Assembly: GCA_043822305.1 (NCBI GenBank)
Contig: JBDRBU010000084.1
Span: forward strand, 1 to 25,041
Reading direction: 5' to 3'
DNA: 25,041 nucleotides
From: Candidatus Firestoneibacteriota bacterium
GTDB taxonomy: Bacteria; Oederibacteriota; D2-FULL-39-29; JBDRBU01
The position numbers and the translations under genes were made by a program. Shown piece after piece: positions 1-22,430 of the stretch. Below the pieces are notes generated by a model. The model saw only the letters and a list, made by a program, of their open reading frames with translations. It was not told the DNA's origin and searched no databases. Numbering within the stretch: the stretch's first letter is position 1; the number at the start of each line of letters is the position of its first letter.

Positions 1-1440
1 TGTATTTGTCCCTCCTGCTGCTGTTACTTTAACATTGTATGTACCTCCTGCTACTCCCATCGGCACTACTGCTCCACTTATTGTCGTGTCTGTTATGACT
101 GCATTAGTTATATTTAATGATGTATTCAATCCATCATCTAACTTTACGGCTGTCACTGCTGAACTACTTAACCCTCCATAAAATCCACTACCTGTGATTG
201 ATACTGTGGTTAAATCTAAATTAGAACCAGTAGGTGGAACTATATCTGTTACTGTTGGTCCCGGTGTTGTTACTATATATTTGACCGCACTTGTTAAATT
301 CGTTCTTTCTCCCGCTGTTACTTTAACATTGTATGTACCTATGGCTATTCCTGTTGGCACTATTGCTCCATTTATGCTCGTATCAGTTATGACTGCATTA
401 GTTATATTCAATGATGTATTCAATCCATCATCTAACTTTACGGCTGTCACTGCTGAACTACTTATCTCTCCATAAAATCCACTCCCTGTAATTGATACTG
501 TTGTTGTCTCTAAATTAGAACCTGTCGATGGAACTACATTTGTTACTTTTGGTCCAGATTTTACTACAAATTTGACCGCACTTGTTAAATTTGTTCCTCC
601 TGCTGCTGTTACCTGGACATCATATGTACCCCCGGCTATTCCGGTTGGCACTACTGCTCCACTTATAGTTGTATCAGTTATGACCGCATTAGTTAGATTT
701 AAGGAAGTCTTTGCTCCATCGTTTAATTTCACTACTATTACTGTTGAACTACTTAATCCTCCATAAAATCCACTCCCTGTGATTGACACTGTTGTTGTTG
801 ATGAATCATAACCACTTGATGGTACTAGTTCTGCTACTGCCGGTGCTGGTGTTGTTACTATATATTTTATTGCACTTGTTGTATTTGTTCCTCCTGCTGC
901 TGTTACTTTAACATTGTATGTCCCTACTACCACTCCCATCGGTACTACTGCTCCACTTATTGTCGTGTCTGTTATGACTGCATTAGTTATATTTAATGAT
1001 GTATTTGCTCCATCATCTAATTTTACTGCTTGGATAGTTGAACTACTTAATCCTCCATGAAATCCACTCCCTGTGATTAACACTGTTGTTAATACTAAAT
1101 TAGAACCAGTAGATAGAACTATATTATTTACTTCTGGGAATGGTGCTCCTGTGACTACATATTGGACCGCACTTGTTGCATTTGTCCCTCCTAATGCTGC
1201 TACCTGAACATTATATGTACCTACTACTATTCCTATTGGCACTACCGCTCCACTTATGGTTGTGTCTGTTATAACGGCATTAGATATATTCAACGAGGTA
1301 TTCAATCCATCATCTAACTTTACAGATTGAACTGTTGAACTACCCACTTCTCCATAAAATCCTGTCCCTGTGATTGATACTGTCGTTGTTTCTAAATTAG
1401 AACCTGTTGATGGGACTATATTACTTACTTCCGGGAATGG
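1..1440 (-). repeat. At least five tandem IPT/TIG-like repeats (~98 aa) within the giant protease
   Basis: Recurring ITG(S/T)GF(Y/H)G(G/E) and (G)TY(N/D)V(K/Q)V motifs; the + strand core ccat(a/g)aaatcc recurs near 175, 470, 760, 1055 and 1350, about 294 bp apart. Confidence 0.85.
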
Positions 1441-4400
1441 AGCTATCAACTTTATCTTGCCAAATTTTAGATATGAAGTTTCCCATATATTTTTAGTTGT
1501 TCGGCTATACCAAACCATGGGAACATATGAAACATTTCCTTTTGAATATACTGTACTCGATCCCCAATTTACAAATCCATCATTAATAAAAGATGAAAGT
1601 ACTTCCCATGTTACCCCATTATATTTTCTATAAACAATACGCATATCTCCTTCCCCTTCATTTGACCAGAAACCCCATAAATTAACCCCATCTGTTGTCA
1701 GGGCTACATTGCTTACGAATGCAGATTGTAAAACAGTTGGACTTGACCAACTTATTCCATCGTAATATATATATTTCACTTTCGCCCCATCTACATATAT
1801 TGTATGAATATAATTATTAGAAGTAATACATACTGAAAAATCGCGATTACAAAAAGTCTCCGGAATATCTACTGGAGTAGACCAATTTGATCCATTCCAA
1901 TAGCTCCAGGAAATTTTATTTGCATCCTTTCCTGAACTAGCAACTACCACTGGATATCCATTCCATATAACTAATGCAGCGAACATTTTTGGAGACATCA
2001 CATCAGAACCCAAACTCCAACTTACTCCATCATCATCCGAATATTTTACTCGAGTAACCGGATTAGAATATGTCCCACTTTGATATGCAACCCATATTCT
2101 TCCGGATGATGGCTCTTTGGTAATAGAAGGATATCCTACGAAACTATCTTCAACAGTATATTTTGGTTCCAATGTATAATTTCCGCTATCGTATGTCATC
2201 TTTCTCATTATTAGTGAACGGTTTACATCACTCACTCTTACCAGAACTATTATATAAATGTTATCTGAGGCATCTTTACATACAGATGAATGCAGTGCTG
2301 GATCATCAATCACGAAGTCCTCTGGACTGGTTGTGACTAATGTTTCATTACCCCAAGTGTCTCCACCATCTGAAGAAATTTTATAATATAAACCTCCATA
2401 TCCATATGACCCCCCTGTGCCATAAAATACTACTAATTTACCATCCGATGTTAAAACTAAATTTCTATCTTTCTGCCATCCAACACGATGAGTATATTTT
2501 ATTTCACTTCCTGTTGTCACCTTATATTGGACTGCACTTGTTATATTTGTCCCTCCTGCTGCTGTTACTTGGACATTATATGACCCTACTACACATCCAA
2601 TAGGAACTATTGAATGTATAATTGTACTATCACTTGTCACATTATATCCATCTAAACTATAACTATTCATTCCATTGTCTATCTTTACCGATGTTACTGT
2701 TGAACTATCCCCTCCTCCATAAAATCCACTCCCTGTGATTGATACTGTCGTTGTCTCTAAATTTGAACCTGCTATTGGATATATATTACTTACTATTGGT
2801 AATGGCGCTCCTGTTACTACATATTTGACCGCACTTGTTAAATTTGTTCCTCCTAATGCTGTTACTTGGACATTGTATGTCCCTACTACACATCCAATAG
2901 GAACTATTGTCTGGACAATTACACTATCACTCGTGATACTGTATCCAGTTAAATTATAACTATAATTTCCACTATCTATCTTTACTCCTGTTACCGTTGA
3001 ACTATCCCCTCCTCCATAAAATCCACTCCCCGTGATTGTTACTGTTGTTAATACCAAATTTGAACCCATTACAGGATTGATATTATTTACTCTTGGGAAT
3101 GGCACCCCTGTGACTATATATTGGACTGCACTTGTTAAATTTGTTCCTCCTGCCGTTACTTTAACATTGTATGTGCCTACATCTATTCCTTTTGGTACTA
3201 CTGCTCCACTTATAGTAGTATCTGTTATAACTGCATTAGATATATTTAATGATGTATTCAATCCATCATCTAATTTCACTACTGTTACTATTGAATTATT
3301 TCCTCCTCCATAAAATCCACTACCTGTGATTGATACTGTCGTTAATGTTAGATTTGAACCTGTTGTTGGATATATATTACTTACTGTTGGTACAAATGTC
3401 GTTATTACATACTTGATAACACTTGTTATATTGGTCCCTCCCGCCGCTGTTACTTTGACATCGTATGTCCCTATTACACATCCACCTGGTACTATTGCAT
3501 TCATAATGCTGTCACTTGTCATATTACATCCCTCTAAACTATAATTATTTATCCCATTGTCTATCTTTACTCCTGTTACTGTTGAACTACTTAACCCTCC
3601 ATAAAATCCACTCCCTGTGATTGTTGCTGTGGTTAATATTAAATTAGAACCTGTATTTGGATTAATATTGCTTACTGTTGGTACTGATGTTGTTACTGCA
3701 TACTTGACCGCACTTGTTATATTTGTCCCTCCTGCTGCTGTTGCTTTCACATTATATGTACCTATGGCTACTCCTATTGGTACTACTGCTCCATTTATGG
3801 TTATATCAGTTATGACTGCATTAGATATATTCAACGATGTATTCGCTCCATCATCTAATTTCACTGTTTGGACTGTTGAACTACTTCCTCCTCTATAAAA
3901 TCCACTCCCTGTAATTGTTACTGTGGTTAATATTAAATTAGAACCTGTTGTTGGAACTATATTACTTACTATTGGTAATGGTGCTCCTGTTACTACATAT
4001 TTGACTAAACTTGTTGTATTTGTTCCTTCTGTTGTTGTTACTTTAACATTATATGTACCTATGGCTACTCCTATTGGTACTACTGCTCCATTTATGGTCA
4101 TATCAGTTATGACTGCATTAGATATATTCAATGATGTATTTGCTCCATCATCTAATTTCACTGCTTGGACTGTTGAACTACTTCCTCCTCCATAAAATCC
4201 ACTCCCTGTAATTGTTACTGTGGTTAATGCCAAATTTGAACCTATTGATGGAACAACATCTGTTACTGTTGGAATAATTATCCCACCAAACCAATCTATT
4301 ACTCTTTTCATAATTGTTTTTCTAATGTCTTTACCATCTATATCATCAAACTGAAAATCTAAAAACACTACTTTGTAGGTACTATTTTCATATGATACAC

Positions 4401-7400
4401 CAACAGTACCAACACCATATGTAACGCATGAAAATAGTGGATTTGAATCAAGCGGGGTTAAATTCATCATCATTTCAGCATACCATCCCCCATTCTGTCC
4501 TCCTAAAACATCAAAAGATAAACCCTCGCTAATCGGATTACTTTCTACTCCATTTATTCTTACACTATTGTCCCACGATCCACCAAAACTTACGACACCA
4601 GTTTGACAATGTAAATAATTCCTACGAAATGCTAATGCCTGGTCTGAGATCATATTTGATGTTAGATCTCCTCCAATCAAAAACAATCTACCTCCATTAT
4701 CTAAATAATTTGATAAATTAATTAGATCATTCGCTGTGAGAGGAGCAGGAGCGGCATACCCATCATTAGCACTACCAATCGTTACAACACCTGATGTAAA
4801 CCAAATTACTTTTTTAAACATATTAAGAATATCTGAATTGGGAGAATCATCATCTTTCACAATAAATTCTTCAAAGTTAAAACCATTATCTGATAATGCC
4901 TCTCTATAGTTTGCTTCACGATTGTATTTTGTATAGTCTCTATATCTATTACTATTTACTAACAAAATTGGATAGGGTTTTCGGATAACAAGCGAATGCA
5001 ATCCAGATACCGGCTCTCTGGCCATATTACCAGCATCATCAGTAGATTCAATATAATAATAAACCATAGTTCCAGATACCTGCCCAGGAATAAAAGCAGT
5101 ATAAGTATCAGAAATATTTGACATAGAAATAACAGTAAATGGAGTAGTCCCAGTAGTATTCCAATAAACTTCTGCTTTATTAACTCTATTATTATCGGCA
5201 ATATTCGCCACAACTCTATATTTGTCCGGTCTCCAGGCATCACTAATAGGAGGAGAATGAACAATTACAGGAGGAATAGTATCATAACTACTAGGAACAA
5301 CATTAAATACAAAATTACCAGATACAGGAAGTCTACTTATATTAGAATGTATATCTTTTGCACTAAGACAATAATAAACATTAGTCCCTACAGGTTGAGT
5401 CGGAATATCTCCCATGAATATCTCTTCTTCTCCAAACTTTCTTGTCAGATTTACTTGAGTCCACCCAGTTGCATCATTAATCTTCCAATATAGATATCCG
5501 TTTTCTACTGCTCTATTATCTACTATGATTGCTTCTACTCCATATTTATCTTTTACTTGTTGGTAACTGCCAAAAGGAGTATGAGAAAGGACAGGACCAG
5601 CTATATCCGGTTCTGCACAGCTATCTAACCAGGATATTGATCTTCCTATTAATTCTCTGGTTTTGGATGGATCAGATATGTTCCCCGTATGCCCCAGTCT
5701 AAAAGCAAAGTATACTACTGCATATGTGTTATTTACATATCTTGAAGCAACAGTCAGCGGGGCTACAGATGGGTAAGGAGGATACTCTAAAGTCCCATCT
5801 ACAGGTGTAGTAAATTTAAGTATTGGAGTAGATGCATCTAAACAACTAAACCCTCCTGTCTGATCAACTCCACTAATATTTACTCCAGGCCATACATTCC
5901 AGCCAACAATCGTTACATTCTTCATCCCGCTACTTATAGGATCATTAGGAATTTCATCAAAAACTGCTTGTGGTTGATTGCCGCCTGCAACTTTATGCAA
6001 GATTACATTGGAATGTAAATAATTCCGAATAAATGAGGCATTCGTATAATCTAACATATCACTACTTACAAGTAGCTTTCCACCTTGATCAAGATAACCT
6101 TTTAGATTTTCTAACACAGTGATATCAACACCCATCTCACCTGTCCACCAAATTACTTTCTTAAAAAGAGATAATATCTCTACACTTGGAAATGGCTCAA
6201 CCAAAGCATCTACTACTGCAAATTCATACCCATTATAATCCATCGCATTTTTGAAAGATGGGAAATAATCGAAGTTTCCAAAGTAAGGATCAGCAACATC
6301 TATCCCATCATCATCTATCAATAAAACAGGAGGCAATATAAACTTAAATGAAAATACACCTACCTCAGGTAATCTACCAATATTTGTCCCATCAAATGCT
6401 GTAATATAATAATAGACTGTGGTCTTATCTGCTTGCTTTGGAATAATACCTATATAATTTCCTTTCCCATCAGAGTTCATCTTTACCTCGGTGAAAGGTT
6501 CGATGCCTGTAGTATTCCAGTAGACACAAGGGTTAATAACTTCAGCATTATCTGTAATAGTTGCCTTCACTTGCCGATCTTCATATATTTTCCAGGTATC
6601 ACCAAGTGGCATATGAATAATTTGAGGTGGTTCAGTGTCTGGAAGTATATTAAAAGAATAAGTGCCTGTAGATGGAGAATAAGATGCGTTTGGTACACCT
6701 GCACCGTCTTTTGCATAAATATAATAATATATAGTAGTTCCTCCTGATTGACCAGGAATATTTCCCTGATATGTATCTAATCCGGTTAAACTCATAATTA
6801 CTTCATTAAAAGGAGCAAATCCTGTTGTATTCCAAAAAAGCGATACATTGTTTACTTTTACATTATCAGTAACTTTTGCTGATATATAATATTCAGTTAC
6901 TATATATGTATCAGAATACGGAGTATGAGTAATAACAGGAGGTGTAATATCTATTCCTACTCTCATTGTCCAGGTTTCTGATGGTGCATTCACCGGACTT
7001 AAAGAAGGCCCAGACTGGATAGTAGCTTTAAAATAGTAATAAATTATTGTCCCTTCACTTTGAGACGGGATGTTTCCAGAATATTCATCTGGATTTCCAG
7101 TAGAGATCATATTAACTTGCGTAAAATTTATTTCATCAAAAGAATAATATAATAAAGTCTCATTAAGAGGAAAGAAAGAAGTAATCACTGCTGTTATCGG
7201 TATAGGGCTGGTAGTATTTTCAGTATCAGAAGGTGTGTGTGAAATTTTTGGTTTAATGTGACAAAGGGTTTTGTCTACATTTATTCTACCATATCCAAAC
7301 TTTTCATCATAGCCAACATCTCCTAAATCATCTACTCCTAGTTGAATATAGTTTTTAATTTCATCCCTTGTCAGCAATGTATCACTCGACCACACTAATG

Positions 7401-8511
7401 CAGCTAATCCAGCGACTTGAGGAGTGGCCATAGAAGTTCCACTATAGAAGCCATAATTATTGCCTGGTAGTGAACTTAAAATTCCGGCTGACTGGCTCCC
7501 TCCTCCGCCGGGTGCTGCTACCGATACTCCTCCTCCATAAGATGAATAGTAAGCAAGAGTATCATCAATGGTAGTAGCTGAAATAGCCATACATTCAGGG
7601 TAAGCAGCAGGATAGAAAATACCATCGTTACCATTGTTGCCACGAGCAACTACGATTAAACATCCTTTGTTGTATGCATAAATTACTGCATTATGAACAA
7701 CACTTGAATCACTTGTTCCTCCTAAACTCATACTAATAACTTTTGCACCATTATCAGCAGCATAGATTATACCATTAGCTACTGATTCATTAGATCCCGA
7801 ACCCTGATCTGTTAATACCTTAACCGCTAATATTTGTGCTCCCCAGGAAACCCCTGCAACACCTTTAGCATTATTAGTAATCGCCGAAGCAATACCCGAA
7901 CAATGAGTTCCATGACCATGTCCATCCATAGGGTCATAATCATTATTAGCAAAATCATATCCTTTTATAACTTTACCAGCTAAATCTTCATGATTATAAT
8001 CTACTCCTGTATCAACAATGGCAATGGTAATATTACTTCCTCCGGTAGATGTACTCCATCCTAATTCAGATTGCATTCTAATATGACACCATTGCTCAGA
8101 ATATCTCGTATCATTAGGAGTAGTAAAAATTTCATAATAACTAACAGGCTCTGCTACTTCTATTAAAGGATTCTTCTTTAATTGTTCTAAATACTCTTCT
8201 ACTTTTTTCCCTTTAGGTAACTTGATTTTTTTATATCCCAATTTGCTAATACCTTGAAATTCCTTCTTCCCTGGAAATTTCTTCATTCCTGGAAATTTCT
8301 CTTCTACTATATTGCCTACATTAAATGTGCTTAATAATTTACCCATCATTGCTGGATTAACATTCTTCTTGAATTTTACAATTAACTCTCCTTCTACATA
8401 CTTCTGACTCTCTTTTGCCTTCCATAATTCAGCTTCTAATTTATTTACTCCCACAAGAAAAAATAGAATCAAAAAACTGCTTATCCACTTTACATTATTT
8501 AATCTTTTCAT
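1..8511 (-). CDS. Giant secreted modular S8 (subtilisin/thermitase-like) serine protease, >2837 aa, 3' end beyond the window
   Basis: Not in the ORF track, consistent with no stop codon inside the window. ATG at 8511 with AGGAG RBS at 8516-8520. N-terminus MKRLNNVKWISSFLILFFLVGVNKLEA is signal-peptide-like. Hand translation of many segments down to base 1 stayed in one frame (ending ...GTYNVKVTAAGGTNT). Architecture: prodomain, S8 domain, 3 'HTP' Ig-like repeats, GATase-like domain, 2 'HTP' repeats, GATase-like domain, 6 IPT/TIG, BNR propeller, at least 5 IPT/TIG. Confidence 0.93.
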   Translation of the reverse strand, partial: MKRLNNVKWISSFLILFFLVGVNKLEAELWKAKESQKYVEGELIVKFKKNVNPAMMGKLLSTFNVGNIVEEKFPGMKKFPGKKEFQGISKLGYKKIKLPKGKKVEEYLEQLKKNPLIEVAEPVSYYEIFTTPNDTRYSEQWCHIRMQSELGWSTSTGGSNITIAIVDTGVDYNHEDLAGKVIKGYDFANNDYDPMDGHGHGTHCSGIASAITNNAKGVAGVSWGAQILAVKVLTDQGSGSNESVANGIIYAADNGAKVISMSLGGTSDSSVVHNAVIYAYNKGCLIVVARGNNGNDGIFYPAAYPECMAISATTIDDTLAYYSSYGGGVSVAAPGGGGSQSAGILSSLPGNNYGFYSGTSMATPQVAGLAALVWSSDTLLTRDEIKNYIQLGVDDLGDVGYDEKFGYGRINVDKTLCHIKPKISHTPSDTENTTSPIPITAVITSFFPLNETLLYYSFDEINFTQVNMISTGNPDEYSGNIPSQSEGTIIYYYFKATIQSGPSLSPVNAPSETWTMRVGIDITPPVITHTPYSDTYIVTEYYISAKVTDNVKVNNVSLFWNTTGFAPFNEVIMSLTGLDTYQGNIPGQSGGTTIYYYIYAKDGAGVPNASYSPSTGTYSFNILPDTEPPQIIHMPLGDTWKIYEDRQVKATITDNAEVINPCVYWNTTGIEPFTEVKMNSDGKGNYIGIIPKQADKTTVYYYITAFDGTNIGRLPEVGVFSFKFILPPVLLIDDDGIDVADPYFGNFDYFPSFKNAMDYNGYEFAVVDALVEPFPSVEILSLFKKVIWWTGEMGVDITVLENLKGYLDQGGKLLVSSDMLDYTNASFIRNYLHSNVILHKVAGGNQPQAVFDEIPNDPISSGMKNVTIVGWNVWPGVNISGVDQTGGFSCLDASTPILKFTTPVDGTLEYPPYPSVAPLTVASRYVNNTYAVVYFAFRLGHTGNISDPSKTRELIGRSISWLDSCAEPDIAGPVLSHTPFGSYQQVKDKYGVEAIIVDNRAVENGYLYWKINDATGWTQVNLTRKFGEEEIFMGDIPTQPVGTNVYYCLSAKDIHSNISRLPVSGNFVFNVVPSSYDTIPPVIVHSPPISDAWRPDKYRVVANIADNNRVNKAEVYWNTTGTTPFTVISMSNISDTYTAFIPGQVSGTMVYYYIESTDDAGNMAREPVSGLHSLVIRKPYPILLVNSNRYRDYTKYNREANYREALSDNGFNFEEFIVKDDDSPNSDILNMFKKVIWFTSGVVTIGSANDGYAAPAPLTANDLINLSNYLDNGGRLFLIGGDLTSNMISDQALAFRRNYLHCQTGVVSFGGSWDNSVRINGVESNPISEGLSFDVLGGQNGGWYAEMMMNLTPLDSNPLFSCVTYGVGTVGVSYENSTYKVVFLDFQFDDIDGKDIRKTIMKRVIDWFGGIIIPTVTDVVPSIGSNLALTTVTITGSGFYGGGSSSTVQAVKLDDGANTSLNISNAVITDMTINGAVVPIGVAIGTYNVKVTTTEGTNTTSLVKYVVTGAPLPIVSNIVPTTGSNLILTTVTITGSGFYRGGSSSTVQTVKLDDGANTSLNISNAVITDITINGAVVPIGVAIGTYNVKATAAGGTNITSAVKYAVTTSVPTVSNINPNTGSNLILTTATITGSGFYGGLSSSTVTGVKIDNGINNYSLEGCNMTSDSIMNAIVPGGCVIGTYDVKVTAAGGTNITSVIKYVITTFVPTVSNIYPTTGSNLTLTTVSITGSGFYGGGNNSIVTVVKLDDGLNTSLNISNAVITDTTISGAVVPKGIDVGTYNVKVTAGGTNLTSAVQYIVTGVPFPRVNNINPVMGSNLVLTTVTITGSGFYGGGDSSTVTGVKIDSGNYSYNLTGYSITSDSVIVQTIVPIGCVVGTYNVQVTALGGTNLTSAVKYVVTGAPLPIVSNIYPIAGSNLETTTVSITGSGFYGGGDSSTVTSVKIDNGMNSYSLDGYNVTSDSTIIHSIVPIGCVVGSYNVQVTAAGGTNITSAVQYKVTTGSEIKYTHRVGWQKDRNLVLTSDGKLVVFYGTGGSYGYGGLYYKISSDGGDTWGNETLVTTSPEDFVIDDPALHSSVCKDASDNIYIIVLVRVSDVNRSLIMRKMTYDSGNYTLEPKYTVEDSFVGYPSITKEPSSGRIWVAYQSGTYSNPVTRVKYSDDDGVSWSLGSDVMSPKMFAALVIWNGYPVVVASSGKDANKISWSYWNGSNWSTPVDIPETFCNRDFSVCITSNNYIHTIYVDGAKVKYIYYDGISWSSPTVLQSAFVSNVALTTDGVNLWGFWSNEGEGDMRIVYRKYNGVTWEVLSSFINDGFVNWGSSTVYSKGNVSYVPMVWYSRTTKNIWETSYLKFGKIKLIAPFPEVSNIVPSTGSNLETTTVSITGTGFYGEVGSSTVQSVKLDDGLNTSLNISNAVITDTTISGAVVPIGIVVGTYNVQVAALGGTNATSAVQYVVTGAPFPEVNNIVLSTGSNLVLTTVLITGSGFHGGLSSSTIQAVKLDDGANTSLNITNAVITDTTISGAVVPMGVVVGTYNVKVTAAGGTNTTSAIKYIVTTPAPAVAELVPSSGYDSSTTTVSITGSGFYGGLSSSTVIVVKLNDGAKTSLNLTNAVITDTTISGAVVPTGIAGGTYDVQVTAAGGTNLTSAVKFVVKSGPKVTNVVPSTGSNLETTTVSITGSGFYGEISSSAVTAVKLDDGLNTSLNITNAVITDTSINGAIVPTGIAIGTYNVKVTAGERTNLTSAVKYIVTTPGPTVTDIVPPTGSNLDLTTVSITGSGFYGGLSSSAVTAVKLDDGLNTSLNITNAVITDTTISGAVVPMGVAGGTYNVKVTAAGGTNT
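1445..2511 (-). other. BNR/Asp-box beta-propeller domain within the giant protease
   Basis: Asp-box motifs ISSDGGDTW and YSDDGGVSW; Trp/Tyr-rich blades (WSYWNGSNWS, YYDGISW, LTTDGVNLWGFWSN); collinear with the N-terminal domain of the 14372..18244 protein. Confidence 0.8.
2512..4272 (-). repeat. Six tandem IPT/TIG-like repeats within the giant protease
   Basis: ITGSGFY(G/R)G cores near 4195, 3895, 3600, 3310, 3015 and 2720, about 291-297 bp apart; two sequence subtypes. Confidence 0.85.
4285..6330 (-). other. Two class I glutamine-amidotransferase-like (flavodoxin-fold) domains (~5620-6330 and ~4285-4975) separated by two Ig-like repeats
   Basis: Paired motifs VLLIDDDG...FKKVIWWTG...YLDQGGKLLVS and ILLVNSN...FKKVIWFTS...YLDNGGRLFLIG, each ending in a helix with W(L/F). 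The fold assignment is inferred from the motif pattern. Confidence 0.6.
6335..7255 (-). repeat. Three ~100-aa Ig-like repeats starting P.I.H.P (two more at ~4980-5605)
   Basis: PKISHTP, DITPPVITHTP, DTEPPQIIHMP, DIAGPVLSHTP and DTIPPVIVHSP, each followed by a ...(G)xIP.Q..(G)T.(I/V)YY core. Confidence 0.7.
7264..8121 (-). other. Peptidase S8A catalytic domain (thermitase-like) with intact triad
   Basis: Mature start TPNDTRYSEQW; IAIVDTGVDYNHEDL (Asp at 8011-8013); HGHGTHCSGI (His at 7912-7914, with thermitase-type Cys); SMSLGG; oxyanion VVARGN; SGTSMATPQVAG (Ser at 7432-7434); FGYGRIN. Confidence 0.95.
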
Positions 8512-8526
8512 TTTTCTCCTCTTTAA

Positions 8527-8548
8527 GTAGTAGCAGGCTTTAGCCTGC
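8527..8548 (+). repeat. GTAG-type REP-like palindrome
   Basis: GTAG-TA-GCAGGC-TTTA-GCCTGC: a GTAG foot and a perfect 6-bp GC-rich stem in AT-rich DNA, lying in the predicted 5' UTR of the protease gene. Confidence 0.6.
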
Positions 8549-8574
8549 ATTCCTTTCTTATTCTTTACATAAAA

Positions 8575-8603
8575 ATTATAACACTATTTTTCTGTTTTGT
8601 CAA
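8575..8603 (-). promoter_or_regulatory. Perfect-consensus sigma70 promoter for the giant protease gene
   Basis: Minus strand TTGACA (8603-8598), 17-bp spacer, TATAAT (8580-8575), with extended -10 TGn; about 64 bp upstream of the ATG at 8511. Confidence 0.88.
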
Positions 8604-8611
8604 GAGTAATT

Positions 8612-8651
8612 CATTGCTTTTCGGGATAGTATATTGCTTTTTTAGGTATTA
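8612..8651 (-). promoter_or_regulatory. Tandem 20-bp direct repeat, candidate AraC-family operator
   Basis: TAATACCTAAAAAAGCAATA and TACTATCCCGAAAAGCAATG (14/20 identical, shared AAAAGCAAT); begins at the regulator stop codon and ends 8 bp upstream of the -35 box. Confidence 0.5.
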
Positions 8652-11501
8652 CATTGATGATTTTCGGTATTCGGAAGGAGACAAGCCATTGATTTTTTTA
8701 AAGACTTTGGAAAAGTAATTTGTATTCTTAAAACCACATCTCATAGATGCTTCGTTTACATTTAATCTTATATCTTTTAAAAGTTTCTTTGATTTTTCAA
8801 TTCTTAAATATGTCAAATACTCAAAGATTGTTTTTCCAGTTTCTTTTTTAAAAACTCTTGACAAATGAAAGGGAGATAATTTTAAAAAATCGGATACAGT
8901 AGTTAATTTTAATGGTTTATGTAAATTCTCTTCTAAAAAATTAATCGTATTACTGGCTAAATGCGAATAAAGTGGTTTTGTTTCTAAACTTTTTAGTTCA
9001 ACAGCAGCATTCTTTAAACTAATATACGGTTCTATTTTATTATTTAAAGTGTTCCAAATCGCATTTCTTAAAACTGGAAAAATTTTCTCAAAAGAAGGAA
9101 TTTTATGAATATTTTTTATTTTCACCTCTTCAAAAAATTTGGGAGCATCCTTATAAAAGGGCTTATCTTTTAATACATCTTTATCAAAACAAATGCTCTT
9201 CCTTGCAGAAAAACTACCTCCACCCAGAAGTTCTACTTTCTTTTGATTTTCAAAACTTGTAAAAAATTTAAGCAATTCTATGGATGACTGAGGGAAACTC
9301 ACCGATTTAGAAATTCCATATGCAAATTCCCAAATTACTGTAGTCGCTTCTTTTCCTTCTTCTCCCAGAGGGATACGCATTAAATCTAATTTATACTTAG
9401 TATTATTAAATATTTCTTTTAGTAAAAGCGAGGAACATAAAAAAAATATCATATTACCTTCACACAATTTTTTAATTTTTTCATTTCCCCTTAATCTTAA
9501 TATTTCTTCAGGAACAATCTTAAACTTATATATTAAATCCTGTATGAATTGCAATGTATCTACAACATTTTTTTCTAATAGCCCTAATTTCCCGCCTTTT
9601 TTGTAAATCTCTCCATCATTATTATATAAAAGTGATAAAAATAAATTAACTAAATTATTTCCGTCTAAAGGAAACCACATTAAACCCGATAAATTGGGAT
9701 TATTTTCTTTTTTTATAATAATCTCTACTTGTTTTATCAATTCATCCCATGTTTTTGGAGGCAAAAATCCATATTTTCTTAATAGGTCTTTCCTGTATAC
9801 AATTAACTCACATTTTATATCATCCGGGATAGCATAAAGGCACCCCCCAAAAGAACATCCCTCTAATCCTGCATGAAAAAAATCTTTTTTATCTTCGTCA
9901 CTTAAAACATTGTCTAATTCCAATAGAAACTTATCTTTAGCCAGAAGTTGCATAGTATTAAACTCTAAAGGGACTACTCCAATATTTTTATTAGATGTTA
10001 TGTTCTCTTTTATATAAGGAAGATTATCCCAAGTATCTATATCTAATATTTCCACCTTAATGTCTGGATGAATTTTTTGAAAATCGTTAATTATATTTTC
10101 TATCGCTTTACCCTTATATGTTATTAGTTTTATCTCTATTTTTTTTGCACTACCACTTAAAATATTCTGGTATATTTCAAGACTCTTTCCTGTACGAATT
10201 TCATTATTGTCTATTAGTAGTTCTCTGACGGACTTATCACAATCTATATTACTTGCTTTTATTACATAAATTATTTTTCTAATTCTATTTTCTATCTCTG
10301 TATATTTCAACAAAATGACATTGTCTGCTATTTTAAAAATTTCTTCTTCGCTATTTACAGTATTCAATGTAAGCAATAAACCTTTTTCTAAAAACATTGT
10401 TTTTAAAATCTTTATTACTTTAAAGAGAATTATTCCTTTATTTTCAAATTCTTTAATCTCGTCTATGACAACTCTTTCAATATTTGAATTTGCTAATTTA
10501 AAAATCTTATCAAGAATCTCTTCAATAAATAAATCTTGCGAAATATTCAAAATTTCTAATGTCCCTTTATTTAAAACTTCTTTTAAATTGAAATTTATTA
10601 AATTAGCCGTTCTGGCTAACTTTTCCATTTCAATATCAAAACCTATATATAAACATTTTTCTTTGAATTCTATCCCTGTCTTCAAAAATTTCAAAGAAAA
10701 TAAGGTTTTACCAATACCAGATTGTCCTCCTATTAAACTAATTTCCCCTTTTAAAAATCCTCCATCTAAAACTTCATCTAACTTACTTATGCCTGTTTTA
10801 ACTTTAATATAACTTTTTTTTATGGATTTTTGAGAAAGTTCCCTTGTCAAATGCTCAAGATTAGGATATACCTTTAATCCATTATTAGTAATTTTTAACA
10901 AATGCTTCCCCTCAGAAAAGGGGCTCCATCTTGATTTTAAAACACTGATAGTTCTCTTAAACGGTTCTTCATTTATTCCAAGTTTAATAATTATATCAAC
11001 CAAGCAATCTAAATAATGAAACATATTCTCATTATTTATTAAAAGGACAGATATATTCTCGTTCTTGATTTTTCTTAAGAATGAAAGAAGTATATTATGA
11101 AATTTAACGGCATCTTTTGATATGTGATATAATGGATTAATACTGTCTATGACAATTCTTTTTATCTTATATTTTCTAATTAATTTGTAAAGAAAACTGC
11201 TTTTAAAATTAAACATACTTTTATAAACATTTATAACATCGGAAACAATGAAGAGTCTTTTTTGTTTTTTTAAACCAGAAAAATTCCAATTAAAATTTTT
11301 TGCATAATAATTTAAAATTTCTTCTTCTGTATTACTAAAAGATAAAAATATAGATGGTTCATTGGATTTATATATAAATTGTAATCCAAACATAGTCTTA
11401 CCGGTTCCAGAAGAACCTTCAAGGAGTATTGAACCACCTGGCAAGATTCCTTCATGCAATAATCCATCTACTCCTATTTTCATGGTATCATCTCTTGACA
11501 T
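8649..11501 (-). CDS. Fusion of double KaiC/RAD55-like ATPase, family-1 solute-binding domain and AraC HTH (putative one-component transcriptional regulator)
   Basis: Walker A GSSGTGKT (aa 29-36) and GQSGIGKT (aa 259-266); Walker B RIVIDS and RVVIDE; KTGISKLDEVLDGG; ILSGSA at the end of CII. SBP motifs FQKIHPDIKVE, LYAIP, YRKDLLRKYGFLPPKTWDEL (aa ~455-838). AraC motifs LSPFHLSRVFKKETG and CGFKNTNYFSKVFKKINGLSPSEYR (aa ~848-946). No signal peptide. Confidence 0.9.
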   Translation of the reverse strand: MSRDDTMKIGVDGLLHEGILPGGSILLEGSSGTGKTMFGLQFIYKSNEPSIFLSFSNTEEEILNYYAKNFNWNFSGLKKQKRLFIVSDVINVYKSMFNFKSSFLYKLIRKYKIKRIVIDSINPLYHISKDAVKFHNILLSFLRKIKNENISVLLINNENMFHYLDCLVDIIIKLGINEEPFKRTISVLKSRWSPFSEGKHLLKITNNGLKVYPNLEHLTRELSQKSIKKSYIKVKTGISKLDEVLDGGFLKGEISLIGGQSGIGKTLFSLKFLKTGIEFKEKCLYIGFDIEMEKLARTANLINFNLKEVLNKGTLEILNISQDLFIEEILDKIFKLANSNIERVVIDEIKEFENKGIILFKVIKILKTMFLEKGLLLTLNTVNSEEEIFKIADNVILLKYTEIENRIRKIIYVIKASNIDCDKSVRELLIDNNEIRTGKSLEIYQNILSGSAKKIEIKLITYKGKAIENIINDFQKIHPDIKVEILDIDTWDNLPYIKENITSNKNIGVVPLEFNTMQLLAKDKFLLELDNVLSDEDKKDFFHAGLEGCSFGGCLYAIPDDIKCELIVYRKDLLRKYGFLPPKTWDELIKQVEIIIKKENNPNLSGLMWFPLDGNNLVNLFLSLLYNNDGEIYKKGGKLGLLEKNVVDTLQFIQDLIYKFKIVPEEILRLRGNEKIKKLCEGNMIFFLCSSLLLKEIFNNTKYKLDLMRIPLGEEGKEATTVIWEFAYGISKSVSFPQSSIELLKFFTSFENQKKVELLGGGSFSARKSICFDKDVLKDKPFYKDAPKFFEEVKIKNIHKIPSFEKIFPVLRNAIWNTLNNKIEPYISLKNAAVELKSLETKPLYSHLASNTINFLEENLHKPLKLTTVSDFLKLSPFHLSRVFKKETGKTIFEYLTYLRIEKSKKLLKDIRLNVNEASMRCGFKNTNYFSKVFKKINGLSPSEYRKSSM

Positions 11502-11526: not shown

Positions 11527-11591
11527 AGGGTCTAAAGACCCTTGACTACTCAAAATTTGTTAATGGAGTCGGGGTCGTCTCTGACCCTAAC
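11527..11591. repeat. Pair of divergently oriented REP-like palindromes
   Basis: Minus strand GTAG-TCA-AGGGTC-TTTA-GACCCT (11549-11527); plus strand GGAGTCGGGGTC-GTCTCT-GACCCTAAC (11565-11591), a degenerate hairpin. Confidence 0.5.
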
Positions 11592-11711
11592 ATACCTTCT
11601 CTAATCCTATAATATAATAAAATATAGATTTTTCAAATGTTTTTATGTATCTTCTGGATTTTTCTATCTCTTCGTTGTATTTTTGCAAAAAGATTTCTTT
11701 ATTTTCCATAA

Positions 11712-14371: not shown

Positions 14372-17300
14372 CTATTTCACTACAAATTTTCCTACTTTTC
14401 TTCCACAGCTCTCATCTGTGATTAAAAATATATATATTCCTCTCTTTATTACCTCTCCAACTTCATTTTTCCCATCGAATTCTATTCTTCCATCGTTTCC
14501 TGAATTACCTATTGTGTCTGGTAGTATCTCTTTGACTAACTCACCTGAGATCGTATATACCCTTAATCTCGGATTTGCTGTTAAATTTACAAATTTTACA
14601 ACTCCAGTTCCCAGACTAAAATCAATTGGATTTGGATAGACAACGACATCATTCAAATTATTTGATGGCTCTACATACTGCACAATCCTGAATATTGAAA
14701 GAGATGAAACCGCAGTTTCTACTTCTTTATTGGCCGTGTCTACATTGCAATCACTACTAACATATTCCCATTTGCCTTCATTATTTAATCTAACTGTTCT
14801 AAACTTCTTCTCTATGACAGAATCATCTATACCACTATAACTCATAGTTAGACTTAAACTTTTTCCATCACTAATTTCTGCTTCTGTAGATTCTATTTTT
14901 CGGACAGTATTATCCAAAATCACATTTATCTTCATATTCAGATATTTTAACTTGTCTGCTTTGCTAACTTTTTCTAAATCTGAATCAGTTAATCTATCTT
15001 CTATTATTATTGCTGTATCTTCACTAAATGTATTTGCCGGAATACTTAAACTTACCCCGGATTTTGAAAAACTATAATCCGCATCTGCTTTAAATAAAAT
15101 ATCGTATTTTGGCCCTTCGAGGCTACTTGTTCCTCCTACTGTTTCTACTATAACTGGATATCTCCCTGTATCTAAACTTTTTAATAATATAATCGAATGA
15201 AAAATATTATTATCATCAAATACATTATAACCACTTAAATCTATATTGTTTATTTTAATACTAATTACTTGTGAAGAAGGTGTCCCCCCAAAAAATCCTG
15301 TTCCTTTAATATCTATGGTTACATCTTCTTCTCTACTACCTTTATTAGGAGTTATCTGAGTAACTACAGGGATTGGAGTAGCAACATTAAAATTAATTAC
15401 CTCTGTGGAAGAACCTCCTCCTGTAGTTACCTTAACATTATATATTCCAACTAAAAGACCGGATGGAACTACTCCAGTTCCTGAAGTATCAGAAACCACA
15501 GTACAATTAATAAGATCTGTAGATAGTGCTCCTTTTGATAATGTTATGGCTCTTATATCAGGAAGACCATATGTTCCACCAAAGAAAACAGAGCCAGCAA
15601 GTGAAATAGTAGTTGAATTTGCATTTGAACCAGCATTAGGTGAAATACTTGTTAAATGCGGCAAATCTGTTGTTGATATCCATTTTTGCGAAGATGCCAC
15701 ATTCGTCCCGTTTAATGTTGTTACTCTTATATCGTATGTTCCGGCTAATATCCCCCCTGGTATCATTACATTATCTATGCTTGTATCATCCACAAAATGA
15801 AAGGTAGATATCGTAACTTCCATTATTCCAGAAAGAGACATGCTTGTCCATCCAGTAAAATTATTTCCGGTTATGGCTAAACCAGTATGCTGAATTAAAT
15901 TTGAACCAGTAATTTTTGAAATTGTAGAAACTGTTGGCATGGCTGTAACTTTGTATTGGACTGCGCTTGTTGCAACTCCTCCACCTGTTGTTACTTTCAC
16001 ATCATATGTTCCTACGGCAACACTTGACGGAACTATACAATTTATTATACTTGTATCATTTGAAACAGTTCCTTTGGTTATGGTGATACTAGCACCTAAC
16101 TTTATCTCTCTTATATCATCCGTTCCTGTGCCCCCATGAAATCCAGAACCATATATAGATATAGTAGATGTTTGATAAAGATTATTTCCTGTGTCTGGAA
16201 CTAAATTTGTAACTGTTGGAATAACTGTGGTTGTCACTGTAAACTTATTTACACTCGTTGCATTATTCCCTCCAGAAGATGTGCTAACCCTGACATTATA
16301 AGTTCCGGCATGACATTGTGCAGGTATTACTGCTCCGGTTATTATCGTCTCTGCTACATTTGATGATATAAATGTTACATTTGTTTGATACAAGCCATCT
16401 ATACTTGCTATCTTTATCCATTCTACATCTGATGAAGAACTTCCTCCCCAAAAAGCAGTTCCATTTATATCTAATGTAGTTGGTTGATTATTAGGTGCTG
16501 TTGTTGAACTTAATGTTGTAACTGTTGGATTTGTTACTATTCTTAATTGGACTGTACTTGTGGTATTATTTTCTCCACCTGTATATACCTTCACATTGTA
16601 TGTTCCTAATACTACTCCAGAAGGCACTATGCAATTATTGATTTGTGTATCAGAAACTACTGTTCCTGTTGCAATTTGTGTATTTGCACCATCTGATAAT
16701 CTTATATCTCGGACATCCTGAACTGGATTTGTCCCTGAAGTTGTCCCACCAAAAAATCCTGTTCCATGTATTGCAATTTCTGTTACACCTGTGTTTCCTG
16801 CTCTATCAGGAACTAAATTCATAACAGTTGGAACAATATTCGTAGTTACAATAAACTTTTGTGAACTGGTTGTATTTGTGCCTTTTGATGTTGTTACTTT
16901 TATATTATAAGTTCCTGCTTTAACTCCAGCAGGGACGATTGCATTTGAAATTATTAAATCAGTTATAGTTGCCGAAAAAATATTTAAAGCCGTATTAAAA
17001 GTATCATCTAATTTGACACTTGTTATATCACTGCTATAAACTCCTCCAAAAAATCCCTGACCAGTGATTGTTACTGTAGTAGGAGTAGAATTTTCTCCTG
17101 TTGTTGGTGAAATACCTGTAACTTTTGGAGAAAATCCTAATTTTGAAAATCTTATAATGTATGGATTTGCAGTGCCTTCATACCAAAATACAGGAATAAT
17201 AGCATTGTCCCCTCCTATTGAGTAAGGAACTGCTGAACGATAGTTATTGCCACCACTACTATATAGAGTAGTAGTACTATCCCAACTCCCATTGTATTTT

Positions 17301-18244: not shown

Positions 18245-18261
18245 TATTATGTTTCTCCTTG

Positions 18262-21045: not shown

Positions 21046-21067
21046 TTTACACCTCCGTTAACAATAA

Positions 21068-21096
21068 ATTTTATCAAAAATCCATTAAAGAAACAA
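21068..21096 (-). promoter_or_regulatory. Putative sigma70 promoter for the PilX-like/IPT gene pair
   Basis: TTGTTT, 17-bp spacer, TAAAAT with extended -10 TGn, 22 bp upstream of the ATG at 21045. Confidence 0.5.
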
Positions 21097-21152
21097 CAAT
21101 TATTTTTCAATAATTGAATCTATTTCTATTTCCTGTCGTCCTTTAAATGGTG

Positions 21153-21233
21153 AATATTCAGCGAAAGCCCTCTATTTTTTAACTCCCCCTTAATAAAGGG
21201 GGAATACAATCCTCACGGCTTTCACTGACTATT
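21153..21233. repeat. Nested inverted-repeat element
   Basis: AATATTCAGCGAAAGCC (21153-21169) pairs 15/17 with GGCTTTCACTGACTATT (21217-21233); inner hairpin TCCCCCTT-AATA-AAGGGGGA (21184-21203). Confidence 0.6.
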
Positions 21234-21236
21234 TAC

Positions 21237-21353
21237 AATCTGGGATATCCCTGTTACCCTTGCTTCAGAAATTATCTCATCTACAATAACTGGATCTACT
21301 ATGAACGATGGAATTTTAAGTTTTTCTAAAATCTTACAGGATAAAATTGCACT
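21237..21353 (-). pseudogene. buk: buk internal fragment (relic copy of 12312..12428)
   Basis: Translates SAILSCKILEKLKIPSFIVDPVIVDEIISEARVTGISQI versus intact GAILSYKISEKLKIPSFIVDPVTVDELIPEARITGVSRI; 99/117 nt identical by hand alignment. Confidence 0.92.
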
Positions 21354-21359
21354 TAAAAA

Positions 21360-21483
21360 TTATAAACTTTTTCTATTTACATTTTTCTTAGCAAAAACTT
21401 CTGAAATTTTGTGTGAAACTCCAGATTGATTACTGACTAATCCAGATATAGTCTGTTCCCTTTTTATAAGGATTTTCCTCCCT
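21360..21483 (-). pseudogene. ilvN: ilvN 5' fragment with its RBS (relic copy of ~14033..14155)
   Basis: GGGAGGAAAATCC RBS retained; ATG mutated to ATA (21467); reads KREQTISGLVSNQSGVSHKISEVFAKKNVNRKSL then TCA>TAA; 94/108 nt identical including a 37-nt exact match. Confidence 0.92.
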
Positions 21484-21498
21484 GCTTTTTTCACCTCT

Positions 21499-22416: not shown

Positions 22417-22430
22417 TGGTTATTCCCTCC

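What the first reader, a model, noticed from the sequence alone, without database searches (positions are those of the whole stretch)
8649..11501. KaiC-SBP-AraC fusion: candidate undescribed one-component signalling system
Seen: one 950-aa ORF with tandem CI/CII KaiC-like ATPase domains (aa ~6-213 and ~233-452), a full-length family-1 sugar-binding-protein fold (aa ~455-838) with no signal peptide or lipobox, and a C-terminal AraC double HTH. Known: KaiC-family proteins form hexameric rings and usually signal through separate partners (KaiA/KaiB/SasA); SBP1 domains are normally extracytoplasmic; AraC HTHs usually carry a cupin or receiver sensor. Inferred: a cytoplasmic transcription factor integrating nucleotide/energy state or timing with a carbohydrate-like ligand, potentially displaying six DNA-binding heads on a ring. 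I do not know a characterised protein with this architecture. No kaiA, kaiB or ABC permease genes are in the window.
Basis: partly seen in the sequence, partly recalled or inferred. Interest (0 to 1): 0.92.

Follow-up and report, generated by a model that had tools for sequence, protein, structure and literature searches.

The report
KaiC-ATPase, sugar-sensor, AraC fusion regulator
This gene encodes a cytoplasmic DNA-binding regulator that joins two clock-type (KaiC-like) ATP-binding domains to a sugar-binding sensor; it is the rarest form of an unstudied regulator family found beside sugar-degrading and giant secreted-protein genes, and it is probably a sugar switch, not a clock.

Summary
Window 8649-11501 (-) is one uninterrupted 950-aa ORF with KaiC-like CI, KaiC-like CII, a full CUT1-type solute-binding domain and an AraC double HTH. 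It has no signal peptide or membrane segment. Six other full-length sequences (40-59% identity) from independent assemblies keep the architecture, so it is not a chimera.

It is not a one-off. It is the two-KaiC form of a modular, uncharacterised family: SBP-AraC (about 500-540 aa), KaiC-SBP-AraC (about 720-775 aa; seven or more paralogues in each of two related genomes) and KaiC-KaiC-SBP-AraC. Named members come mainly from Candidatus Firestonebacteria MAGs. Members often sit beside glycoside-hydrolase genes or directly upstream of giant secreted proteins.

A clock reading is not supported. The KaiC phosphosites are replaced (F389/K390), the catalytic Glu pairs are lost (S56/N57, D289/I290), the CII arginine finger is absent, and no kaiB was found in the genome. 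Both P-loops and Walker B aspartates are intact.

Best reading: a sugar-sensing AraC regulator whose assembly depends on an ATP-binding, poorly hydrolysing KaiC-like ring. The ring and the ligand are inferred.

I found no description in the literature I could search. A separate KaiC-KaiC-SBP family without an HTH exists in Armatimonadota. Novelty: a new variant of known kinds.

The parts
8649..11501 (-). Whole 950-aa ORF (P0001): KaiC-like CI, KaiC-like CII, SBP and AraC HTH
10824..11492 (-). KaiC-like domain CI (aa 4-226). P-loop aa 29-36 (GSSGTGKT) and Walker B D119 are intact. KaiC's E77/E78 positions are S56/N57.
10146..10820 (-). KaiC-like domain CII (aa 228-452). P-loop aa 259-266 and Walker B D347 are intact. 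KaiC E318/E319 correspond to D289/I290, S431/T432 to F389/K390, and the arginine-finger position to S417.
8967..10136 (-). Cytoplasmic CUT1-type solute-binding (Venus-flytrap) domain, aa 456-845. It is fused where KaiC's C-terminal A-loop would begin.
8658..8951 (-). AraC/XylS-type double helix-turn-helix DNA-binding domain, aa 851-948
8575..8603 (-). Perfect sigma-70 consensus (TTGACA, 17 nt, TATAAT, with TG) between the regulator's stop codon and the downstream giant gene
   Evidence: consensus match only
8613..8641 (-). Two exact AAAAGCAAT direct repeats 20 bp apart, directly upstream of the -35 hexamer. Weak operator candidate.
   Evidence: The only other such pair in the genome lies inside a coding region.
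1..8550 (-). Downstream same-strand giant ORF of at least 2850 aa, running off the contig: S8 subtilase, seven TIG stretches, BNR. Putative regulated target, inferred from adjacency only.
   Evidence: Analogous regulator-then-giant-protein order in L088, L098, L099 and L115.
11609..11636 (-). Promoter-like site (10 of 12) in the 210-bp gap upstream of the regulator
   Evidence: not above the chance expectation

Best explanation
The gene encodes a cytoplasmic one-component transcription regulator. Its solute-binding (Venus-flytrap) domain senses an imported sugar or oligosaccharide. Its AraC domain binds DNA near the gene. The likely targets are the adjacent genes for very large secreted proteins or glycan-degrading enzymes.

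The two N-terminal KaiC-like domains bind ATP and drive self-assembly, most likely as a KaiC-type ring. They do so with little or no hydrolysis and without a phosphorylation cycle. The ATPase module therefore sets oligomeric state and cooperativity. In function it resembles the NTPase module of MalT or the AAA+ ring of enhancer-binding proteins.

Shown: the four domains, cytoplasmic location, motif status, conservation, and the modular family with its neighbourhoods. Inferred: ligand class, ring formation, ATP dependence and the target genes.
For: The architecture and its integrity rest.

Conservation:
- Five full-length relatives at 43-59% identity come from other assemblies.
- One more, at 40% identity, lies in related genome G014.

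Modular family, by Pfam on the window plus 20 fetched loci:
- 2 are KaiC-KaiC-SBP-AraC, 15 are KaiC-SBP-AraC and 4 are SBP-AraC.
- Of the best 150 of 1367 representatives at E<=1e-30, 2 are double, 29 are single-KaiC, 46 are SBP-AraC, 63 are SBP only, 7 are AraC-AraC, and 3 are KaiC(-KaiC)-SBP without an HTH.

Neighbourhoods:
- 9 of the 20 fetched loci hold glycoside-hydrolase, CBM or malectin families: GH28, GH94, GH141, GH31, GH123_N, GH18, GH16, GH42, CBM30/11, PcRGLX.
- In 4 loci (L088, L098, L099, L115) the regulator is followed on the same strand by a protein of about 350-390 aa and then a giant PQQ-propeller/Ig protein. In the window it is followed directly by the giant S8 gene.

Sensor and location:
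- The sensor is closest to oligosaccharide-binding proteins: MalE3, TMBP, SmoF and AbnE.
- It is cytoplasmic in all 25 aligned members.

Nucleotide binding:
- P-loop intact in 8 of 8 CI, 8 of 8 CII and 25 of 27 single domains.
- Walker B Asp intact in 8 of 8, 8 of 8 and 16 of 27.

Low or absent catalysis:
- A Glu at KaiC's EE positions occurs in 5 of 8 CI domains (not in this protein), 1 of 8 CII and 14 of 27 single domains.
- The CII arginine-finger position is Ser.
Against: - No ligand, DNA site, oligomer or ATP binding was measured or reliably modelled.
- The inter-domain arrangement in the model is uncertain (pTM 0.49).
- Catalytic-residue calls rest on sequence alignment. Acidic residues lie two to four positions downstream (E59-E61, E291) and could substitute.
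- The promoter of the downstream giant gene is a perfect sigma-70 consensus. That is unusual for an activator-dependent promoter and would fit repression or no control at all.
- Only 9 of 20 fetched loci show carbohydrate-active neighbours. The window's own neighbours are a protease-like giant, butyrate-kinase-like/PTB genes and unknowns.
- SBP-AraC members work without any KaiC domain, so the ATPase is dispensable for the core function.
Confidence: 0.55

Rival explanations
1. Energy-state integrator or active motor. Both KaiC domains hydrolyse ATP. The protein reads the ATP/ADP ratio, or uses hydrolysis to remodel DNA or RNA polymerase, and combines this with sugar binding.
For: P-loops and Walker B aspartates are intact in both domains of all 8 double forms. 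4 of the 6 closest full-length relatives keep a Glu at the second CI position. The CI Lys/Arg pair K189/R191 is present in this protein. The fold, including CI-CII stacking, matches KaiC.
Against: This protein has S56/N57 and D289/I290 at KaiC's catalytic Glu pairs. None of the 7 proteins of its clade has a CII Glu at either position. The CII arginine-finger position is not Arg in this clade. In single-KaiC paralogues, Walker B Asp is lost in 11 of 27 and the P-loop in 2 of 27. A domain under selection for catalysis would not show this.
Confidence: 0.2
2. The SBP domain is not a ligand sensor. It is a structural or dimerisation scaffold, and the effector, if any, is the nucleotide or a partner protein.
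For: Cytoplasmic CUT1-type SBPs have no characterised precedent that I found. The most conserved SBP motif (Y569-R570-K571-D572-L573...K576) is a general family motif, not a known ligand contact.
Against: The domain is full length and aligns with ligand-binding SBPs over about 370 residues. It is well folded in the model. It is the constant core of the family together with the HTH. Paralogues are expanded to seven or more per genome beside different glycan-degrading genes, as expected for sensors with different specificities.
Confidence: 0.1
3. KaiC-type timer. An autophosphorylation/dephosphorylation cycle in CII gates the AraC output in time.
For: Double-domain KaiC homology over the whole N-terminal half.
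Against: KaiC S431/T432 correspond to F389/K390, and to F/Y plus K/E in all 6 aligned relatives. The T426 position is not conserved. The CII catalytic base is lost. The KaiB family was not found in the 96.8%-complete genome. The SBP replaces KaiC's C-terminal regulatory tail.
Confidence: 0.03
4. Assembly chimera or pseudogene.
For: The source is a metagenome-assembled genome and no reads could be laid.
Against: The ORF is uninterrupted. Both junctions are conserved in six other full-length sequences from other assemblies. The same SBP-AraC junction occurs in dozens of shorter family members.
Confidence: 0.01

Closest known systems
Cyanobacterial KaiC (e.g. PDB 2GBL, 4O0M, 7S65)
   Same: Two stacked RecA-type domains with P-loops and Walker B motifs. 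They align end to end (E 4e-42) and superpose as one unit (TM 0.71-0.77 normalised to the target).
   Different: The S431/T432 phosphosites, the E77/E78 and E318/E319 pairs and the CII arginine finger are all absent. No KaiB was found. KaiC's C-terminal A-loop and tail are replaced by an SBP plus an AraC HTH. KaiC residue numbers are recalled from the literature and mapped through the alignment.
Archaeal KaiC-like ATPase 'signal transduction hubs' (Makarova, Galperin and Koonin 2017, mBio)
   Same: The concept is the same: KaiC-family ATPases, some inactivated, fused or linked to input and output domains, with narrow phyletic range. I saw this only as cited in passages of Galperin 2018 (PMC5847659), which names KaiC-REC and iKaiC fusions.
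   Different: That proposal concerns archaea. This protein is bacterial, with input (SBP), ATPase and output (AraC) in one chain. I could not read the 2017 paper (not held), so I cannot exclude that it lists a similar architecture.
E. coli XylR (PDB 4FE4/4FE7)
   Same: A cytoplasmic periplasmic-binding-protein-like sugar sensor fused to a C-terminal AraC HTH. Its HTH region matches aa 834-947 (E 8e-12).
   Different: From recall, XylR's sensor is the LacI-type (type I) fold, not a CUT1 SBP_bac_1 fold, and it has no ATPase domain.
MalT (STAND-class ATP-dependent maltose regulator) and sigma-54 enhancer-binding proteins (NtrC type)
   Same: A functional analogy only: an NTPase module that oligomerises, plus a sensor and an HTH. 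In enhancer-binding proteins a ring carries several DNA-binding heads.
   Different: Their NTPases are STAND or AAA+ folds, not RecA/KaiC. No PF00158 or NB-ARC/NACHT match appeared at E<=0.01. The output domains are LuxR or Fis type, not AraC. Descriptions of MalT and NtrC are recalled.
Armatimonadota KaiC-KaiC-SBP proteins (uncharacterised; P0106 and relatives)
   Same: A double KaiC followed directly by a CUT1 SBP, with no signal peptide context.
   Different: No HTH (870-881 aa). Much closer to true KaiC (E 1e-74), with the CII Glu-Glu pair and a Ser at the S431 position retained. Its KaiC domains branch apart from those of the window's clade, so the fusion is independent.
GvpD (haloarchaeal gas-vesicle regulator)
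   Same: A KaiC-family P-loop protein acting in transcription control. The GvpD_P-loop Pfam family matches aa 21-186 at 39.2 bits against a cut-off of 24.
   Different: From recall, GvpD has no DNA-binding or sensor domain of its own and acts on the activator GvpE.

Membership tests
KaiC superfamily (Pfam PF06745, RecA-type) | Match above Pfam's gathering score, in two copies | tested here: met
   200.5 bits against 26.6, two stretches. Own-genome scan scores the two domains at 122.4 and 89.4 bits.
KaiC superfamily (Pfam PF06745, RecA-type) | P-loop GxxxxGK[ST] and Walker B Asp in each domain | tested here: met
   aa 29-36 and D119; aa 259-266 and D347. Invariant in 6 of 6 full-length relatives.
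Circadian-clock KaiC proper | Catalytic Glu pairs after strand 2 (E77/E78 and E318/E319) | tested here: not met
   S56/N57 and D289/I290 by alignment to KaiC.
Circadian-clock KaiC proper | Phospho-acceptor Ser/Thr pair (S431/T432) | tested here: not met
   F389/K390 here; F/Y plus K/E in all 6 relatives.
Circadian-clock KaiC proper | KaiB partner encoded in the genome | tested here: not met
   PF07689 was not found in the 96.8%-complete genome. The control rings in Synechococcus.
Circadian-clock KaiC proper | Hexameric double ring | not testable with these tools
   The one complex job returned no verdict (see Tried and rejected). Needs SEC-MALS or cryo-EM.
AraC/XylS family | C-terminal domain of about 100 aa with two HTH motifs, above Pfam cut-offs | tested here: met
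   HTH_18 75.1 bits against 33.6; HTH_AraC 72.4 against 26.6 with 2 stretches. Matches XylR, AraC and MarA chains. F884, G923, F930, F934 and P942 are invariant in 25 sequences.
CUT1-type ABC solute-binding proteins (SBP_bac_1) | Full-length type II binding-protein fold, above the Pfam cut-off | tested here: met
   68.8 bits against 26. aa 470-839 align with residues 23-404 of 1eu8 and 23-391 of 6dtq.
CUT1-type ABC solute-binding proteins (SBP_bac_1) | Export signal or lipobox, and partner ABC permease genes | tested here: not met
   The domain is internal, with no hydrophobic segment. No permease family appears among the window ORFs. It is therefore a sensor domain, not a transport receptor.
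STAND (MalT-like) or AAA+ sigma-54 activators | NB-ARC/NACHT or Sigma54_activat ATPase domain | tested here: not met
   No such Pfam family at E<=0.01. The ATPase is RecA/KaiC type. Analogy only.

The most novel reading that the evidence does not exclude
SBP-gated KaiC signalling. A Venus-flytrap sugar sensor is fused exactly where KaiC's regulatory A-loop emerges from the CII ring. Ligand-induced closure would then set the nucleotide state or assembly of a KaiC-like ring, which in turn arrays up to six AraC heads for cooperative promoter binding.

Two observations support this. The series with zero, one and two KaiC domains shows stepwise recruitment of the ATPase by an SBP-AraC regulator. 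The independent KaiC-KaiC-SBP family of Armatimonadota shows that sensor-to-KaiC coupling was invented at least twice. Together they would make this a general, undescribed bacterial input route into KaiC-family ATPases, with both input and output easy to assay.
Probability: 0.2. Interest if true: 0.8.

Novelty: new variant of a known kind. Interest (0 to 1): 0.62.

Why it matters
KaiC-family ATPases outside cyanobacteria have been proposed as signalling hubs, but their inputs and outputs are mostly unknown. Here the input (a sugar-type binding domain), the ATPase and the output (an AraC DNA-binding domain) lie in one polypeptide. Natural variants carry zero, one or two ATPase domains, which makes a ready comparison set for asking what a KaiC-like module adds to a transcription factor. 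The family also marks candidate regulators of glycan-degradation genes and giant surface-protein genes in poorly known phyla (Firestonebacteria and relatives). Finally, it shows that CUT1 solute-binding proteins have been recruited as cytoplasmic sensor domains.

Tried and rejected
- **Complex prediction.** Two copies of aa 1-455 returned 'no answer' (score 0.00, controls not run). This is no evidence either way.
- **Read-level check of the junctions and expression.** No sequencing run was listed. This blank is not evidence.
- **Genome-contig scan with A1.** All 74 loci were KaiC-only relatives, because the patterns lay partly in the KaiC part. It did not help with the fusion.
- **Metagenome-contig scan.** Of 80 loci kept, one was a full-length double form (L115, which is P0006) and two were single-KaiC forms (L163, L165, not examined further). 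The rest were KaiC-only.
- **Operator hunt.** The AAAAGCAAT pair upstream of the giant gene has one other match in the genome, and that lies inside a glycosyltransferase-like coding region. The motif remains a weak candidate.
- **PDB sequence searches of the unknown neighbours** (741 aa and 927 aa) found nothing.
- **Clock reading.** Rejected on motifs and the absence of KaiB.
- **Internal duplication as the origin of CI.** Rejected. CI and CII of the fusion fall in different parts of the KaiC-domain tree (quick search, SH-aLRT support only, with CI placement at 81-89).
- **Literature.** The Makarova 2017 paper is not held. One malformed query was corrected.
- **Earlier notes of this scan.** Searches by sequence and by words for this architecture found nothing.
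Full report
**1. The observation**

Window 8649-11501 on the minus strand is a single open frame of 950 codons.

Pfam finds four kinds of domain:
- KaiC (PF06745), two stretches, 200.5 bits against a cut-off of 26.6.
- SBP_bac_1, aa 464-753, 68.8 bits against 26.
- HTH_18, 75.1 bits against 33.6.
- HTH_AraC, two stretches.

Against solved structures:
- aa 5-458 align end to end with cyanobacterial KaiC (E 4e-42).
- aa 470-839 align with the whole of MalE3 (6dtq, 6e-26) and the trehalose/maltose-binding protein (1eu8, 6e-25).
- The tail aligns with XylR, AraC and MarA.

An AlphaFold2 model built on a 25-sequence alignment has mean pLDDT 87.5 but pTM 0.49. The domains are therefore reliable and their mutual arrangement is not. 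Foldseek superposes aa 1 to about 480 on complete KaiC chains (TM 0.71-0.77 normalised to the target), so the CI-on-CII stacking is also KaiC-like.

There is no signal peptide and no membrane segment in this protein or in 24 aligned relatives.

**2. The gene is real**

A word-indexed search of 5.8 billion proteins found five other full-length proteins (951-962 aa, 43-59% identity, 99% coverage) with the same Pfam set, from other assemblies. One is named by NCBI as a hypothetical protein of a Candidatus Firestonebacteria MAG. One is named by JGI 'circadian clock protein KaiC'. A sixth (956 aa, 40% identity) lies in a related genome, G014. Conservation of both junctions makes a chimera very unlikely.

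**3. It is one member of a modular family**

Searching 99 genomes of the same phylum gave full-length matches in 2 genomes only, G000 and G014. It also gave many shorter matches that begin at about aa 225 of the query: 7 in G013, 7 in G014, and 1-2 each in G006, G007 and G009. Others begin at about aa 505-550, in G008, G017, G033, G036, G039, G045 and G055.

I fetched 20 such loci and scanned every ORF of 100 aa or more with Pfam. Counting the window, the 21 regulators divide as follows:
- 2 are KaiC-KaiC-SBP-AraC.
- 15 are KaiC-SBP-AraC (712-774 aa; one is cut by a contig end).
- 4 are SBP-AraC (527-542 aa).

A profile of the SBP-AraC part (alignment A3, 20 sequences) was run against 1.84 billion cluster representatives. 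It gave 1367 hits at E<=1e-30. I classified the best 150 with my own domain HMMs:

| Architecture | Count | Note |
|---|---|---|
| KaiC-KaiC-SBP-AraC | 2 | |
| KaiC-KaiC-SBP | 1 | |
| KaiC-SBP-AraC | 29 | |
| KaiC-SBP | 2 | fragments |
| SBP-AraC | 46 | several are fragments; one has an unassigned 288-aa N-terminus, |
| SBP only | 63 | |
| AraC-AraC | 7 | |

Where members carry names, these are hypothetical or generically labelled proteins. KaiC-bearing forms and one SBP-AraC form come from Candidatus Firestonebacteria MAGs. Two SBP-AraC forms come from Spirochaetes MAGs.

**4. Origin of the two KaiC domains**

I built a tree of 118 KaiC domains (quick IQ-TREE, LG+G4, SH-aLRT support only). 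It used the fusions, the stand-alone double KaiCs of the phylum, and KaiC-only relatives from loci L003-L029 only. I left out the three domains of one odd protein, P0008.

- CII of the seven double fusions forms a group (support 91).
- That group is sister (84) to a strongly supported group (99) of 16 single-KaiC fusion domains.
- CI of the same seven forms its own group (89) elsewhere, among stand-alone CI and archaeal single-domain proteins (81).

So KaiC-SBP-AraC is the older fusion, and CI was added at the N-terminus. It is not a tandem duplicate of CII. These supports are moderate and the tree is unrooted.

**5. State of the ATPase**

KaiC residue numbers below are recalled from the literature. 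I mapped them through the KaiC alignment and the family alignments.

*Kept in this protein:*
- Both P-loops (aa 29-36 and 259-266).
- Both Walker B aspartates (D119, D347).
- K189/R191 at the CI Lys/Arg-finger positions.

*Lost in this protein:*
- E77/E78 are S56/N57.
- E318/E319 are D289/I290.
- S431/T432 are F389/K390.
- The CII arginine finger is S417.

*Across the fusions (43 distinct domains of 46):*

| Feature | CI | CII | Single-KaiC |
|---|---|---|---|
| P-loop intact | 8 of 8 | 8 of 8 | 25 of 27 |
| Walker B Asp | 8 of 8 | 8 of 8 | 16 of 27 |
| Glu at either EE position | 5 of 8 | 1 of 8 | 14 of 27 |

The single CII with a Glu is P0106, which belongs to another lineage.

The pattern fits a nucleotide-binding module whose hydrolysis is weak, lost or dispensable. 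It does not fit a clock: no KaiB family match exists in the 96.8%-complete genome. One caveat applies. These calls come from alignment, and acidic residues two to four positions downstream (E59-E61, E291) might compensate.

**6. Where the sensor is attached**

The KaiC alignment runs to query residue 461 (chain position 503 of 4o0m). The first SBP strand (aa 455-461 in the model) therefore takes the place of the segment that in KaiC forms the C-terminal A-loop and tail (recalled). In a KaiC-like ring, the SBP-AraC arms would leave from the CII face. This is inference.

**7. What it may control**

All nine large ORFs of the window are on the minus strand.
- Upstream of the regulator lie an acetate/butyrate-kinase-like gene, a PTA_PTB gene and an acetolactate-synthase small-subunit gene.
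- Downstream, 98 bp after the stop codon, begins an ORF of at least 2850 aa with an S8 subtilase domain, seven TIG stretches and a BNR domain.
- The gap between them holds a perfect TTGACA-17-TATAAT promoter with a TG extension.
- Just upstream of that promoter are two exact AAAAGCAAT repeats 20 bp apart. The only other such pair in the genome is inside a coding region, so this remains a weak lead.

In relatives:
- 9 of the 20 fetched loci carry glycoside-hydrolase, carbohydrate-binding or malectin families near the regulator.
- Four loci (L088, L098, L099, L115) repeat the order regulator, then a protein of about 350-390 aa with sub-threshold FadL/TodX-like similarity, then a giant PQQ-propeller/Ig protein. 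Two of these regulators are double forms and two are single.

Adjacency suggests these regulators govern secreted glycan-degrading enzymes and giant surface proteins, but it does not prove it. A consensus promoter is unusual for an activator-dependent gene, so repression or no control of the giant gene remains possible.

**8. Mechanism proposed**

A cytoplasmic sugar or oligosaccharide binds the Venus-flytrap domain. The AraC domain binds DNA near the gene. The KaiC-like module binds ATP and sets the oligomeric state, with little hydrolysis and no phosphorylation cycle.

Rivals and their confidence:
- Active ATPase or energy sensor: 0.2.
- SBP as a mere scaffold: 0.1.
- Timer: 0.03.
- Artefact: 0.01.

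**9. Comparison with what is known**

The protein is a member of the KaiC superfamily and of the AraC/XylS family by their defining sequence features. It carries a CUT1-type SBP fold used as an internal domain. It fails four tested features of clock KaiC.

In function it most resembles ATP-dependent oligomerising regulators (MalT, enhancer-binding proteins) and the binding-protein-plus-AraC regulator XylR. It belongs to none of those families.

Literature searches of the held library:

| Search terms | Result |
|---|---|
| KaiC + 'domain architecture' + AraC | 0 papers |
| solute-binding + one-component + AraC + DNA-binding domain | 0 papers |
| SBP_bac_1 + HTH_18 | 1 unrelated paper |
| KaiC + AraC | 142 papers; none of the 15 listed relevant by title or abstract |

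The key 2017 paper on archaeal KaiC-like hubs is not held. I saw only how Galperin 2018 cites it (passages). Absence from print is therefore not established.

Earlier notes of this scan describe degenerate KaiC-like N-terminal domains on sigma-54 activators in other genomes. I did not test them.

**10. A side finding**

P0106 represents a separate family of KaiC-KaiC-SBP proteins without any HTH.
- 79 of the 80 proteins returned at E<=1e-20 carry KaiC plus SBP Pfam families. Most are 868-889 aa.
- They are named 'extracellular solute-binding protein' (NCBI, Armatimonadota MAGs) or 'circadian clock protein KaiC' (JGI).
- The ESM Atlas holds a 52-member cluster of this kind.
- P0106 is much closer to true KaiC (E 1e-74). 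It keeps the CII Glu-Glu pair and a Ser at the S431 position.
- Its KaiC domains branch with stand-alone double KaiCs, apart from the window's clade.

A sugar-type binding domain has thus been joined to a KaiC C-terminus at least twice.

**11. Verdict**

This is a new variant of known kinds, namely one-component AraC regulators and KaiC-like signalling ATPases. It is not described in what I could search, and it is experimentally tractable. Interest 0.62.

Noticed in passing
P0106 and relatives P0210-P0285 (not in the window): A well-populated, uncharacterised family of KaiC-KaiC-SBP proteins (about 870-881 aa, no HTH) in Armatimonadota MAGs, annotated as 'extracellular solute-binding protein' or 'KaiC'. 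Unlike the window's protein, it keeps the CII Glu-Glu pair and a Ser at KaiC's S431 position, and it arose by an independent fusion.
   Followed up: partly
window 8575-8641 (-): A perfect sigma-70 consensus promoter with extended -10, preceded by two exact AAAAGCAAT repeats 20 bp apart, between the regulator and the giant S8 gene. The only other such repeat pair in the genome is inside a coding region.
   Followed up: partly
window 8533-8548 and 11527-11542: Short GC-rich hairpins (GCAGGC..GCCTGC; AGGGTC..GACCCT) flank the regulator gene in otherwise AT-rich DNA. I did not compare them.
   Followed up: no
L088, L098, L099, L115: A recurrent cassette: regulator, then a protein of about 350-390 aa with sub-threshold FadL/TodX/UPF0164-like similarity (possible outer-membrane barrel), then a giant (1500 to over 2800 aa) PQQ-propeller/Big_1 protein, all on one strand.
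   Followed up: partly
window 1-8550 (-): An ORF of at least 2850 aa running off the contig: Fervidolysin-like prodomain, S8 subtilase, seven TIG stretches and BNR. The annotated ATG at 8550 may be less likely as the start than an ATG at about 8511, which has a strong AGGAG ribosome-binding site.
   Followed up: no
window 14372-24656 (-): Further large genes of unclear function: 1290 aa (TIG/BNR), 927 aa (no Pfam or PDB match), an alpha/beta-hydrolase with weak esterase-family matches, and 741 aa (only weak GHL6; no PDB match).
   Followed up: partly
G000:C59:4-267 (L110): A second KaiC-family fragment (C-terminal part of a domain, 98-aa frame) at a contig edge in the same genome. The genome may therefore hold another KaiC-like gene that is cut by assembly.
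   Followed up: no
window about 11450-11460 (aa 14-16): Compared with all five close relatives, this protein lacks three residues (the 'DEI' of the N-terminal GLDEIL motif) just before the CI P-loop.
   Followed up: no
L095:10981-14681: Beside one paralogous regulator in G014 lies a cluster of defence or mobile-type genes: AbiEii toxin, PIN_3, YhcG PDDEXK nuclease and PRiA4_ORF3.
   Followed up: no
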